A stretch of DNA of 64,000 nucleotides from NCBI RefSeq assembly GCF_054482595.1, contig NZ_CM137008.1, one strand, 5' to 3'. Below are positions 15,001 through 18,000 of this stretch, piece after piece (positions within the stretch are counted from its first letter, which is position 1; every line of letters begins with the position of its first letter). A program made the position numbers.

Positions 15001-18000
15001 CTCCAGCAATACATCCAAATAAAACCAAGATTGCATAAACAGCAACGCATTAAATGCCATTCTGGTTACTGTTCATCGCATATAAAAATTCAAAAATTTT
15101 GCATAGCATTGGCAACCACATATCTGAGTATGTAGTTCAGAGGGTAATAAAATAGCAAGTTATTACTTAAAACTTATTTTAAGTTAACACTCTTAACTTT
15201 ATCATTACATTCCTCCCAGTCTCTAATACCTGCGCATTATATGTATCCAGGAACTCAAATCAACTCAAAATATAAACAAAAGCAAGAGGAATACATTTAA
15301 TATACAGCCGATAAAAGCGGTAACTCTTATTAGGTATCAAAATATAAGAATCGTCTTATTAATAAATATATAACACTATAGGACTGAATCCATTCAGCTA
15401 ATACAAAATAAAATCGTTAATTAATAAAATATAAAATCATGAAGTGATACAAGAGGAATTGCAGGATATGACATGACAATCATATATAATATATGCATAA
15501 TTTTTTACAGCGAGTCAATGATTCCCGCGCCATATGCAGACATGGCGCGGTTTTATGCAAAAACAATCACGCGTCCGGGAACATCACGCTATGGCCCGGC
15601 GCTTCACGATGGAGATGAATAAAGTTAAGGTGCCGCTCGTACTGGTCAAGAATATCGGTGATCACCTGCTCTTTGCTGTAGTCCATCAGGTCGTTGCCCT
15701 GGCTGCCTTCTAACAGGAAGGTTTCCAGCCGGTAGTAGGTCGATTTACCGCTACGTGCGCGGTAGGTAAAGCCCGGCACCGAATATTGCTGCGGCCAAAT
15801 CTGATAGACAAAGTTTTGTTCTTCGCCCATATGCACCAACAAATCCAGATGCCCCAACTGTTGTCCCTCTTCCGGCGGCAGGCTTTTTAGCTCCACGTAC
15901 GCGCCGCGCAACCGCAGCTCCTGCGCCACTTCTTCCATTGCCGGGTAACAGACCGTCTCCATCATCTGTTTAGTGTAACGCGTGCCCGGATAATTCATCA
16001 GGCGCGAGAGACGTTTTTTCCAGCTCAGGCGATCCTGAAGCCCCAGCGGTCGCGGCGCGGTATCGCGGTTGGCACTTTCACGGCGGTAATCTTCTACCTT
16101 CAGAGATTTATACAACCCCGCCATCACGAAGAAGATCACAAAGCTGAACGGCAGCCCCATAATCACCGTGGTGTTTTGCAGCGCGGATATCCCGTTGGTC
16201 ATCAGCATGCCGAGCGTCAGCAGGCCAATCGCCACCGACCAGAAGACGCGCAGCCAGCCGGGGGCGTCGCTGTTGATATCTTTAAGCTGCGAGGTGAAAT
16301 TCCCCAGCACCAGCGCACCGGAGTCCGCCGAGGTCACATAAAACAGCAGGCCAGTAATGGTGGCGACGGAGGCGCTAAAGGTAAACGCCGGATACTGCGC
16401 CAGCAGGCTGTAGAAGCCGCGCTCCGGATGGACCATCGCTTCCTCGGCAAATGCCGCGCCGCCGTGGATGATTTCATACAGCGCGCTATTGCCGAATACC
16501 GAGAGCCATAACAGCGTGAAGGTAAACGGAATAATCAACGTGCCCAGCACGAACTGGCGAATGGTACGCCCACGCGAGATACGCGCCAGGAACAAGCCGA
16601 CAAACGGCGACCATGCCACCCACCATGCCCAGAAGAAGAGCGTCCAGTTATTCATCCACTCAACTGGACGGTCGAAGGCAAAACTGTTGAGCGTCATGCC
16701 CATAAAGCGATTCACATAGTCGCCAACATTCAGCACCAGCGCATTAAGCAGGAACGAGGTGTCGCCCATAAACAATACGAACAGGATCAATCCCAGCGCC
16801 AGCGCAACGTTAAGTTCCGATAACACACGAATCCCCTTATCGACACCGGAGGTGACAGAGATCGTGGCGATTATCACCGACAAGGCGATCAGTGCCGCTT
16901 TTGCCGCCATCGAATCGGGAATATCAAACAGTACGCTCAAGCCATAGTTAAGCTGCACCACACCGATACCGAGCGTAGTGGCAATACCGAAGATGGTGCC
17001 GATCACCGCTGCAATATCCACTGAGTGCCCTATCGGCCCGTTAATCCGTTTACCGAAGATCGGGTACAGCGCCGAGCGGATGGTGAGCGGCAAATTATAA
17101 CGATAGCTAAAGTATCCGAGCGCCATGCCCATCAGCGCATACATCGACCAGCCGGTTAAGCCGTAGTGAAACAGCGTCCAGACCATCGCCTGACGCGCGG
17201 CCTCAATCGTCTGTCCCGCGCCTTCCGGCGGCTGCATATACTGCGTTACCGGTTCGGCTACGGAAAAGAACATCAGGTCGATACCGATCCCGGCAGCAAA
17301 CAGCATCGCCGCCCAACTCAGCAGGCTGAATTCCGGTTTGGATTGTTCTGGCCCGAGCTTCACCGAACCAAAACGCGAACAAGCGATACAGACCACAAAG
17401 ACAATATAGAGCGTTGCCGCCAGCAGATAGTACCAACCGAAGGTTTTAGACACCCAGTCCAGCGTGCGGCCAATCCACAGGGCCGAGAAGTCGCGAAACA
17501 GGATCGTTGTCAGGGAAAACAACAAAATCAGTCCGGCGGAGGTGTAAAACACCACCGGATTGATTTTGTCCTTTTCCCTGCTGTGTGAAAGGTCTGTCAT
17601 CCAGTATCCCCACTGTTATTGTTACCATTTAAAATCAAATTCGTAACAATTAAGACACATTTTATATTGAACGTCCAATCAATAACCGCTTTAATAGATA
17701 AACAACGCTGATGAATGGAGTGGCGAAAATGCCCAAATTGGGGATGCAGTCGATCCGGCGCAGACAACTGATCGACGCCACACTGGAAGCAATAAATGAA
17801 GTGGGCATGCACGATGCAACGATCGCGCAGATCGCCCGCCGTGCAGGCGTTTCTACGGGGATCATCAGCCACTATTTCAGGGACAAAAATGGTCTGCTGG
17901 AAGCAACCATGCGCGATATCACCAGTCAGCTGCGTGACGCGGTTTTGAATCGATTACATGCACTTCCGCAGGGCAGTGCAGAGCAGCGATTACAGGCGAT

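What the first reader, a model, noticed from the sequence alone, without database searches (positions are those of the whole stretch)
15520..15560. Hairpin with T-tract at the betT 3' end is oriented for the opposite strand
The stem cgcgccat/atggcgcg (loop atgcagac) followed by gttttatgc reads as an intrinsic terminator for plus-strand transcription, yet the only neighbouring gene end is betT on the minus strand, whose stop codon at 15567-15569 lies just to its right. It may stop read-through from the AT-rich promoter region of the autotransporter into antisense betT, or mark the edge of the inserted segment.
Basis: seen in the sequence. Interest (0 to 1): 0.2.

Follow-up and report, generated by a model that had tools for sequence, protein, structure and literature searches.

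The report
betT terminator hairpin at island edge
The hairpin is the ordinary stop signal of the choline-transporter gene betT, present in nearly all E. coli; it looks back-to-front here only because the DNA segment carrying the adhesin gene ehaA begins at the foot of the hairpin and replaces the run of T's on betT's own side.

Summary
A perfect 9-bp, GC-rich hairpin lies at 15525-15550, 16 nt past the betT stop codon. TTTTATGC follows it on the + strand. On betT's own strand GAATCATTG follows it, which is not T-rich.

The oddity has an ordinary cause. The hairpin and betT's 3' end occur in about 5,150 of 5,426 complete E. coli genomes. In 3,756 genomes without ehaA (K-12 type), the betT-sense side reads UUUCUCUU. 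That makes a canonical terminator whose upstream A-tract pairs with its U-tract, so it is symmetrical and could act in both directions. The + strand T-run is the complement of that A-tract.

In the 1,398 genomes with the ehaA segment (O-island 15, 4,642 bp here), similarity to K-12 stops at the first base of the stem. The sense U-tract is therefore missing.

The sense RNA also folds better than the antisense RNA: 11 bp with a tetraloop, against 9 bp with an 8-nt loop.

The idea that the hairpin stops + strand transcription is possible but untested, and it cannot explain why the T-run exists. No RNA 3'-end data could be found for either strand. This is an ordinary feature of low interest.

The parts
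15525..15550 (-). Terminator hairpin of betT (core genome). DNA: CCGCGCCAT-ATGCAGAC-ATGGCGCGG. The betT-sense RNA forms 11 bp with a CUGC tetraloop. The + strand RNA forms 9 bp with an 8-nt loop.
   Evidence: Present in about 5,150 of 5,426 E. coli genomes. The inner 7 bp are invariant in 9 aligned strains. Outer positions 15526 and 15527 are polymorphic without compensating changes.
15551..15566 (-). betT 3' UTR between the stop codon and the hairpin. The sense RNA reads UUGUUUUUGCAUAAAA, and its AUAAAA is the A-tract of the terminator.
   Evidence: In non-ehaA strains this A-tract pairs with the U-tract and extends the stem to 14 bp. It is conserved in both haplotypes apart from one A/T SNP at 15561.
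15510..15524 (-). The place where betT's U-tract should be. Here it reads GAAUCAUUGACUCGC (tail score 0.33). Non-ehaA strains have UUUCUCUUACCUCUU (tail score 3.31).
15567..17600 (-). betT, the choline BCCT transporter (677 aa), whose 3' end the hairpin follows.
   Evidence: RefSeq annotation of identical DNA.
10885..15524 (-). Variable segment, equivalent to O-island 15. It holds ehaA (11011-15060) and an AT-rich upstream spacer (28-36% GC). It takes the place of the 820-bp K-12 spacer that contains yahV. Its right edge abuts the first stem base.
   Evidence: blastn against K-12, annotation, composition, published OI-15 size of 4,643 bp. The junction is identical in O157:H7 and two other ehaA strains.
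15473..15501 (+). Promoter-like match ATGACA-17-CATAAT just upstream of the hairpin. It is the only candidate source of a + strand transcript that would end here, as an RNA of about 45-50 nt. It is probably chance.
   Evidence: 6 promoter-like sites found against 7.3 +/- 2.6 in shuffles. The match is conserved among ehaA haplotypes, but so is the whole spacer.

Best explanation
The hairpin is the stem-loop of betT's own Rho-independent terminator and is part of the E. coli core genome.

In the common haplotype without ehaA it is a symmetrical terminator: A-tract (AUAAAA), a GC-rich stem, then U-tract (UUUCUCUU). The A- and U-tracts pair with each other, and the same DNA read on the other strand also gives a hairpin followed by a U-run.

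In this window's haplotype (ehaA, O-island 15), the divergent DNA begins at the first base of the stem. The U-tract on the betT side has been replaced by GAAUCAUUG. Only the complement of the A-tract remains as a T-run, on the + strand. That is why the terminator looks oriented for the wrong strand.

Shown here: the hairpin, its near-universal presence, the exact junction, and the tail scores on both strands in both haplotypes.

Inferred:
- The hairpin terminates betT transcripts in non-ehaA strains.
- In ehaA strains, sense termination at the hairpin is weak. betT transcripts would then end further on, by Rho or H-NS-assisted termination in the 460-nt untranslated AT-rich spacer, and be trimmed back to the hairpin, or partly read on toward ehaA.
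- The + strand half could still stop stray antisense transcripts as a by-product.
For: 1. Position. The hairpin starts 16 nt after the betT stop codon. In 79 betT orthologues from other Enterobacterales, 51 have a strong but unrelated hairpin within 75 nt of the stop. Of those, 26 have a sense T-tail (10 of them on both sides) and only 1 has an antisense-only T-tail.

2. Population. The hairpin plus the betT end occurs in 5,181 of 5,426 genomes. The non-ehaA junction occurs in 3,756 and the ehaA junction in 1,398.

3. Tail scores. Non-ehaA sense 3.31 (top 0.8% of window positions) and antisense 3.49. Window sense 0.33 (background) and antisense 3.45.

4. Folding. The sense RNA hairpin is better built than the antisense one: 11 bp with a tetraloop through G-U and U-A pairs, -18.3 kcal/mol, against 9 bp with an 8-nt loop, -16.2 kcal/mol. 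In non-ehaA strains the A-tract pairs with the U-tract to give a 14-bp stem, -22.7 kcal/mol, z = -3.8.

5. Junction. Similarity to K-12 ends at 15527 and to the non-ehaA consensus at 15525. The junction is identical in divergent ehaA lineages. The segment length equals that of OI-15.

6. Other identities found none. There is no Rfam match and no other copy in the window.
Against: - No experimental 3' end supports termination on either strand. The K-12 Term-seq tables that could be read list no 3' end between 329,541 and 344,013. betT is poorly expressed in those conditions, so this says little.
- Which haplotype is ancestral is not shown. No other Escherichia species was returned by the genome scan. 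The argument that hairpin plus U-tract is the older unit rests on the low chance (about 0.8%) of a U-tract arising at that spot.
- The outer stem positions vary without compensating changes: C/A/T at 15526 and G/A at 15527. Constraint on the full 9-bp stem is therefore weak.
- The K-12 variant has only a 7-bp stem and scores poorly on both strands.
Confidence: 0.75

Rival explanations
1. The hairpin works in this strain mainly as a + strand terminator. It would act as an insulator that stops stray or divergent transcripts from the AT-rich ehaA upstream region before they run antisense into betT.
For: - The + strand has a good hairpin and tail (score 3.45, top 0.64%).
- The spacer to the left is 28-36% GC. 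From general knowledge, H-NS-bound AT-rich DNA of this kind carries spurious promoters.
- Two + strand promoter-like matches lie upstream, at 15184-15211 and 15473-15501.
- The K-12 spacer has a second hairpin whose T-rich run is also on the antisense strand.
Against: - The T-run and hairpin exist unchanged in the 73% of genomes without ehaA, so they were not shaped by this island.
- Promoter-like matches are at chance frequency.
- The + strand hairpin has a suboptimal 8-nt loop and is weaker than the sense one.
- No antisense 3' end appears in the K-12 Term-seq tables available.
Confidence: 0.25
2. The hairpin terminates a tiny dedicated + strand RNA of about 45-50 nt, started from the promoter-like site at 15473-15501. 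That would be a small RNA specific to the ehaA haplotype.
For: A 10-of-12 promoter match (ATGACA-17-CATAAT) lies about 15 nt upstream of the hairpin. It is conserved in four ehaA-type strains.
Against: - Such matches occur at chance frequency in this AT-rich DNA.
- The whole spacer is 97-100% conserved, so conservation of the match adds nothing.
- There is no Rfam match.
- The published table of small intergenic genes of O157:H7 Sakai does not mention betT, ehaA or the three ECs locus tags tried, which I chose from memory as the likely Sakai names.
Confidence: 0.05
3. The inverted repeat acts at the DNA level. It would be a protein-binding palindrome or a recombination or target site that determined where the ehaA segment joined.
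For: The junction falls exactly at the first stem base in both comparisons.
Against: - No integrase, transposase or direct repeats flank the segment in the annotation.
- The other junction lies just upstream of the pdeL ribosome-binding site and has no similar palindrome.
- The spacer next to the hairpin still holds diverged blocks of the K-12 pdeL upstream region. This points to exchange of an old divergent haplotype rather than site-specific insertion.
- A GC-rich hairpin 16 nt after a stop codon is the typical terminator position.
Confidence: 0.05

Closest known systems
Rho-independent (intrinsic) terminators with an upstream A-tract, i.e. bidirectional terminators of E. coli (general knowledge: d'Aubenton Carafa 1990; Lesnik 2001; Chen 2013; Ju, Li and Liu 2019)
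   Same: A GC-rich stem-loop lies a few nucleotides after a stop codon. In the non-ehaA haplotype an A-tract and a U-tract flank it and pair with each other, and the tail scores are good on both strands.
   Different: In this window the sense U-tract is missing, so only the antisense half fits the consensus. The neighbouring genes are co-directional, not convergent, so no known gene needs the antisense half. Termination itself has not been measured.
O-island 15 of E. coli O157:H7 EDL933, a 4,643-bp segment containing ehaA (PMC8565820)
   Same: The same segment sits between betT and pdeL, with the same size (4,642 bp here), the same single gene and the same junction sequence as in O157:H7.
   Different: The published description gives coordinates only. 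Two points are new details: its right border is the first base of the betT terminator stem, and it removes the terminator's U-tract.
3' stem-loops that protect mRNAs ended further downstream, as at Rho-dependent 3' ends trimmed back to a hairpin (Dar and Sorek 2018, title seen; content from general knowledge)
   Same: A stable hairpin without a U-tract sits just after a coding region. This is what betT has in the ehaA haplotype.
   Different: Nothing here shows Rho termination downstream or 3'-end trimming. This is only a plausible fate for the orphaned hairpin.

Membership tests
Intrinsic (Rho-independent) terminator of betT, sense strand | GC-rich stem-loop shortly after the end of the transcription unit | tested here: met
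   11-bp sense RNA stem (9 Watson-Crick pairs in the DNA, 7 of them G-C), -18.3 kcal/mol, starting 16 nt after the stop codon.
Intrinsic (Rho-independent) terminator of betT, sense strand | U-rich tract of about 7-9 nt immediately 3' of the stem | tested here: not met
   In this window the tail is GAAUCAUUG, score 0.33, which is background. The feature is met in the non-ehaA haplotype (UUUCUCUU, score 3.31), carried by 3,756 genomes.
Intrinsic (Rho-independent) terminator of betT, sense strand | RNA 3' ends map in the U-tract; termination occurs in vitro without factors | not testable with these tools
   The K-12 Term-seq tables list no 3' end near 331,5xx, and betT is not induced in those conditions. 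Supplements of four other papers tried were not held, or did not mention the locus.
Intrinsic terminator, + strand (antisense to betT) | Stem-loop followed directly by a U-tract | tested here: met
   9-bp stem with an 8-nt loop, -16.2 kcal/mol, followed by UUUUAUGC with tail score 3.45.
Intrinsic terminator, + strand (antisense to betT) | A transcription unit on that strand that ends there | tested here: inconclusive
   No annotated + strand gene ends here. Only chance-level promoter-like matches lie upstream. The + strand ORFs crossing the hairpin (41-59 aa) have no support.
Bidirectional terminator | A-tract 5' and U-tract 3' of one hairpin, so that both strands read hairpin plus U-run | tested here: not met
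   Not met in this window, where one side is lost. Met in the non-ehaA haplotype, with scores of 3.31 and 3.49 and A/U pairing that gives a 14-bp stem.
Repeated extragenic element (REP/BIME-like) or known RNA family | Multiple copies, or a match to a curated model | tested here: not met
   There is a single copy in the window even with 3 mismatches allowed. There is no Rfam match at E-value up to 10 apart from two chance hits elsewhere.
Border of O-island 15 | Similarity to K-12 is lost at this point, and the segment matches the published island | tested here: met
   Similarity to K-12 is lost between 10885 and 15526, which is 4,642 bp. OI-15 is 4,643 bp with ehaA as its only gene.

The most novel reading that the evidence does not exclude
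In the 27% of E. coli that carry ehaA, betT's terminator has lost its U-tract, so betT transcription may read through the hairpin. betT is induced by osmotic stress and choline. Read-through would run into the downstream ehaA-pdeL unit, which itself sits behind a diverged copy of the K-12 pdeL upstream module. That would couple osmotic stress to expression of an adhesin and a c-di-GMP phosphodiesterase. Meanwhile the surviving + strand half of the terminator would shield betT from antisense transcripts of the H-NS-type AT-rich spacer.
Probability: 0.12. Interest if true: 0.35.

Novelty: new member of a known kind. Interest (0 to 1): 0.12.

Why it matters
It matters little in itself: this is an ordinary gene-end terminator. 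Three modest points follow.

1. It shows how a "wrong-strand" terminator can arise. A variable segment that begins at the foot of a symmetrical terminator removes one U-tract and leaves the complement of the A-tract behind. Automated terminator callers would then assign the site to the wrong strand.

2. It fixes the right border of O-island 15 to the base. It also predicts weaker betT termination in ehaA-carrying strains, including O157:H7, which can be tested.

3. The comparison turned up a side lead. ehaA sits behind a diverged copy of the K-12 pdeL upstream module, which suggests that ehaA and pdeL share regulation.

Tried and rejected
- **Experimental 3' ends.** I searched supplements of Adams 2021 (K-12 Term-seq: no 3' end between 329,541 and 344,013) and TERMITe 2025 (no mention of the locus). 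For Sy 2020 (EHEC Term-seq), Dar and Sorek 2018 and Conway 2014, no supplements are held. The Sakai small-gene tables and the SMRT-Cappable-seq tables do not mention the locus. Thomason 2015 is not held. Nothing usable was found for either strand.
- **RNase III control of betT mRNA.** The published cleavage hairpin spans nt 21-95 of the coding region and is unrelated to this 3' hairpin.
- **Known RNA family.** No Rfam match.
- **Repeated element.** The sequence is unique in the window.
- **Conservation beyond E. coli.** 79 orthologous loci have different hairpins, and none shares this sequence. No other Escherichia species was returned, so the ancestral state could not be read from an outgroup. 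No ehaA or pdeL homologue lies next to betT in other genera.
- **Coding explanation.** The small ORFs that cross or flank the hairpin have no support, and there is no yahV homologue.
- **Wasted search.** One literature search failed because "betT" matched "better" at word start.

Full report
**Observation**

The hairpin is real. The window reads CCGCGCCAT-ATGCAGAC-ATGGCGCGG at 15525-15550: 9 perfect pairs, 7 of them G-C, with an 8-nt loop. On the + strand it is followed by TTTTATGCAAAAAC. The betT stop codon (TGA on the minus strand) is at 15567-15569.

The consensus scan lists this as the best terminator-like site between 13000 and 18000, on the + strand. It is not a chance feature:
- The + strand RNA folds at -19.7 kcal/mol, z = -2.9.
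- The window holds 22 hairpin entries (9 distinct perfect hairpins) with at least 8 bp and 6 G-C pairs, against 1.6 entries in Markov simulations.
- The + strand tail score of 3.45 is reached by 0.64% of window positions.

On betT's own strand the hairpin is followed by GAAUCAUUGACUCGC. That tail scores 0.33, which is background.

**Surroundings**

To the right is betT (15567-17600, minus strand, 677 aa). To the left, on the same strand, is the autotransporter adhesin gene ehaA (11011-15060). A 464-bp spacer of 28-36% GC precedes ehaA. pdeL follows ehaA.

In K-12 the order is betT, then an 874-bp spacer with the small gene yahV, then pdeL, with no ehaA.

**Comparison within E. coli**

A 640-bp query covering the spacer, the hairpin and the end of betT matched 5,181 of 5,426 complete genomes. 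Only 1,398 of them matched the ehaA-side flank. In all the others the match began at query position 465 or 467, which is window 15525 or 15527, at or just inside the first base of the stem.

The reciprocal query, a 70-bp non-ehaA junction, matched 3,756 genomes in full. In the ehaA genomes it matched only from the first stem base onward. Two haplotypes therefore account for nearly all E. coli, at roughly 73% and 27%.

The ehaA junction (…GAGTCAATGATTC|CCGCGCCAT…) is identical in O157:H7 and two other divergent strains.

Against K-12, the window segment 10885-15526 (4,642 bp) replaces 820 bp of K-12. This equals the published O-island 15 of EDL933, which is 4,643 bp with ehaA as its only gene.

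**Why the terminator looks reversed**

In non-ehaA strains the DNA left of the hairpin reads …GGTAAGAGAAA|CCGCGCC…. On the betT-sense RNA this gives the hairpin followed by UUUCUCUUACCUCUU. That tail scores 3.31, in the top 0.8% of window positions. The antisense side scores 3.49.

The sense RNA folds into a 14-bp stem in which the upstream AAA pairs with the downstream UUU (-22.7 kcal/mol, z = -3.8). This is the standard anatomy of a strong intrinsic terminator with an A-tract. From general knowledge, such a terminator also reads as a terminator on the opposite strand.

It lies inside betT's 16-nt 3' UTR and is present whether or not ehaA is there.

In this window's haplotype the divergent DNA starts at the first stem base. 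The sense U-tract is gone and only the antisense half still fits the consensus.

Two further points indicate that the hairpin belongs to the sense strand:
- The sense RNA forms 11 pairs with a CUGC tetraloop, by adding a G-U and a U-A pair, at -18.3 kcal/mol. The antisense RNA forms 9 pairs with a less favourable 8-nt loop, at -16.2 kcal/mol.
- The position is typical. Among 79 betT orthologues from other Enterobacterales, 51 have a strong hairpin within 75 nt of the stop codon, none related in sequence to this one. Of those, 26 have a sense T-tail (10 of them on both sides) and only 1 has a T-tail on the antisense side alone.

**Limits**

- Termination was not measured on either strand. The K-12 Term-seq tables I could read have no 3' end between 329,541 and 344,013 on either strand. 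betT is barely expressed in those conditions. Other data sets were not held or did not mention the locus.
- The ancestral haplotype is not established, because the genome scan returned no other Escherichia species. I infer that hairpin plus U-tract is the older unit, because a U-tract of that quality would arise by chance at that spot with a probability of about 0.8%.
- The outermost stem positions vary without compensating changes: 15526 is C, A (K-12 type) or T, and 15527 is G or A. Only the inner 7 pairs look firmly constrained. The K-12 variant scores modestly.

**Consequences for this strain (inferred)**

- Sense termination at the hairpin is probably inefficient.
- betT transcripts would then enter the untranslated AT-rich spacer. 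There Rho or H-NS-assisted termination, followed by trimming back to the hairpin, is plausible.
- Some read-through toward ehaA is possible, since the two genes share a strand.
- The + strand half could stop stray antisense transcripts. Promoter-like matches in the region are no more frequent than in shuffles (6 against 7.3 +/- 2.6). The one directly upstream (15473-15501) would give an RNA of only about 45-50 nt, and nothing supports it.

**Other identities excluded**

- There is no Rfam match.
- There is no second copy in the window.
- The known RNase III hairpin of betT mRNA spans nt 21-95 of the coding region, far from here.
- No mobile-element genes flank the segment.

**Side observation**

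The ehaA-type spacer is not wholly unrelated to the K-12 spacer. Two colinear blocks survive about 130 bp apart in both:
- A palindrome, ACTGAATCCATTCAGC (window 15402-15379, K-12 L001 3869-3892). It fits the Cra consensus as I recall it.
- A -35/-10 block (window 15272-15232, K-12 L001 4002-4042; 78% identity over 41 bp, E = 2e-5). It contains the minus-strand promoter-like site TTGATT-16-TATAAT.

A preprint reports that Cra and PdeL activate the pdeL promoter and that H-NS silences it. ehaA therefore appears to sit behind a diverged copy of the pdeL upstream module. The 122 bp between the palindrome and the hairpin have no detectable counterpart in K-12.

**Verdict**

The "opposite-strand terminator" is the surviving half of betT's own symmetrical terminator. 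This is an ordinary feature with a tidy explanation and is of low interest.

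Noticed in passing
window 15379-15402 and 15232-15272 (minus strand); K-12 locus L001 3869-3892 and 4002-4042: Two blocks are the only significant similarity between the ehaA-type spacer and the K-12 betT-pdeL spacer. One is a palindrome matching the Cra consensus as I recall it (ACTGAATCCATTCAGC). The other is a -35/-10 block (TTGATT-16-TATAAT). They are colinear and about 130 bp apart in both. ehaA therefore seems to sit behind a diverged copy of the pdeL upstream module, which suggests that ehaA and pdeL share Cra/PdeL/H-NS control.
   Followed up: partly
window 10867-10990: Similarity to K-12 on the pdeL side ends about 15 bp upstream of the pdeL start codon, just beyond its ribosome-binding site. 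In this haplotype pdeL therefore has none of the K-12 promoter region directly in front of it. Only 141 bp separate it from the ehaA stop codon. Those 141 bp contain a hairpin, GAGAGCCGAA…TTCGGCTCTC at about 10959-10990, with T-rich runs on both sides. The pdeL-side flank is only 95.7% identical to K-12, against 98.5% on the betT side.
   Followed up: partly
K-12 locus L001 about 3640-3662 (not in the window): The K-12 spacer has a second hairpin, AGCCCAAA-tgtagg-TTTTGGGCT, about 100 bp beyond the betT hairpin. Its T-rich run (…TTCTTTTCTTTTTT) is also on the strand antisense to betT, yahV and pdeL. This is the same orientation puzzle in the other haplotype.
   Followed up: no
window 15421-15498 (minus strand): A 25-aa hydrophobic ORF (MHILYMIVMSYPAIPLVSLHDFIFY) lies between the betT hairpin and the palindrome. 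K-12 yahV (24 aa, hydrophobic) occupies the same relative place. The two have no sequence similarity, and this may be chance in AT-rich DNA.
   Followed up: partly
window 23392-23430, 24348-24374, 27541-27569, 28450-28490, 34387-34414: Several long perfect palindromes, up to 41 nt with stems of 12-19 bp, cluster between 23 and 35 kb. This is far more than Markov simulations give.
   Followed up: no
K-12 NC_000913.3 position 329,541 (+), equivalent to about window 17522: The only Term-seq 3' end listed in betT lies 78 nt into the coding region. That is inside the hairpin (nt 21-95) reported as the tandem RNase III cleavage site of betT mRNA.
   Followed up: partly
hits H1 (NZ_CM168014.1) and H52 (NZ_CP126614.1): Strain PEC240 has an IS1 inserted in the ehaA-betT spacer. 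Strain Ec1115 matches only the hairpin plus the T-run, with no betT annotated under the match, which suggests another rearrangement that ends next to the hairpin on its betT side.
   Followed up: no
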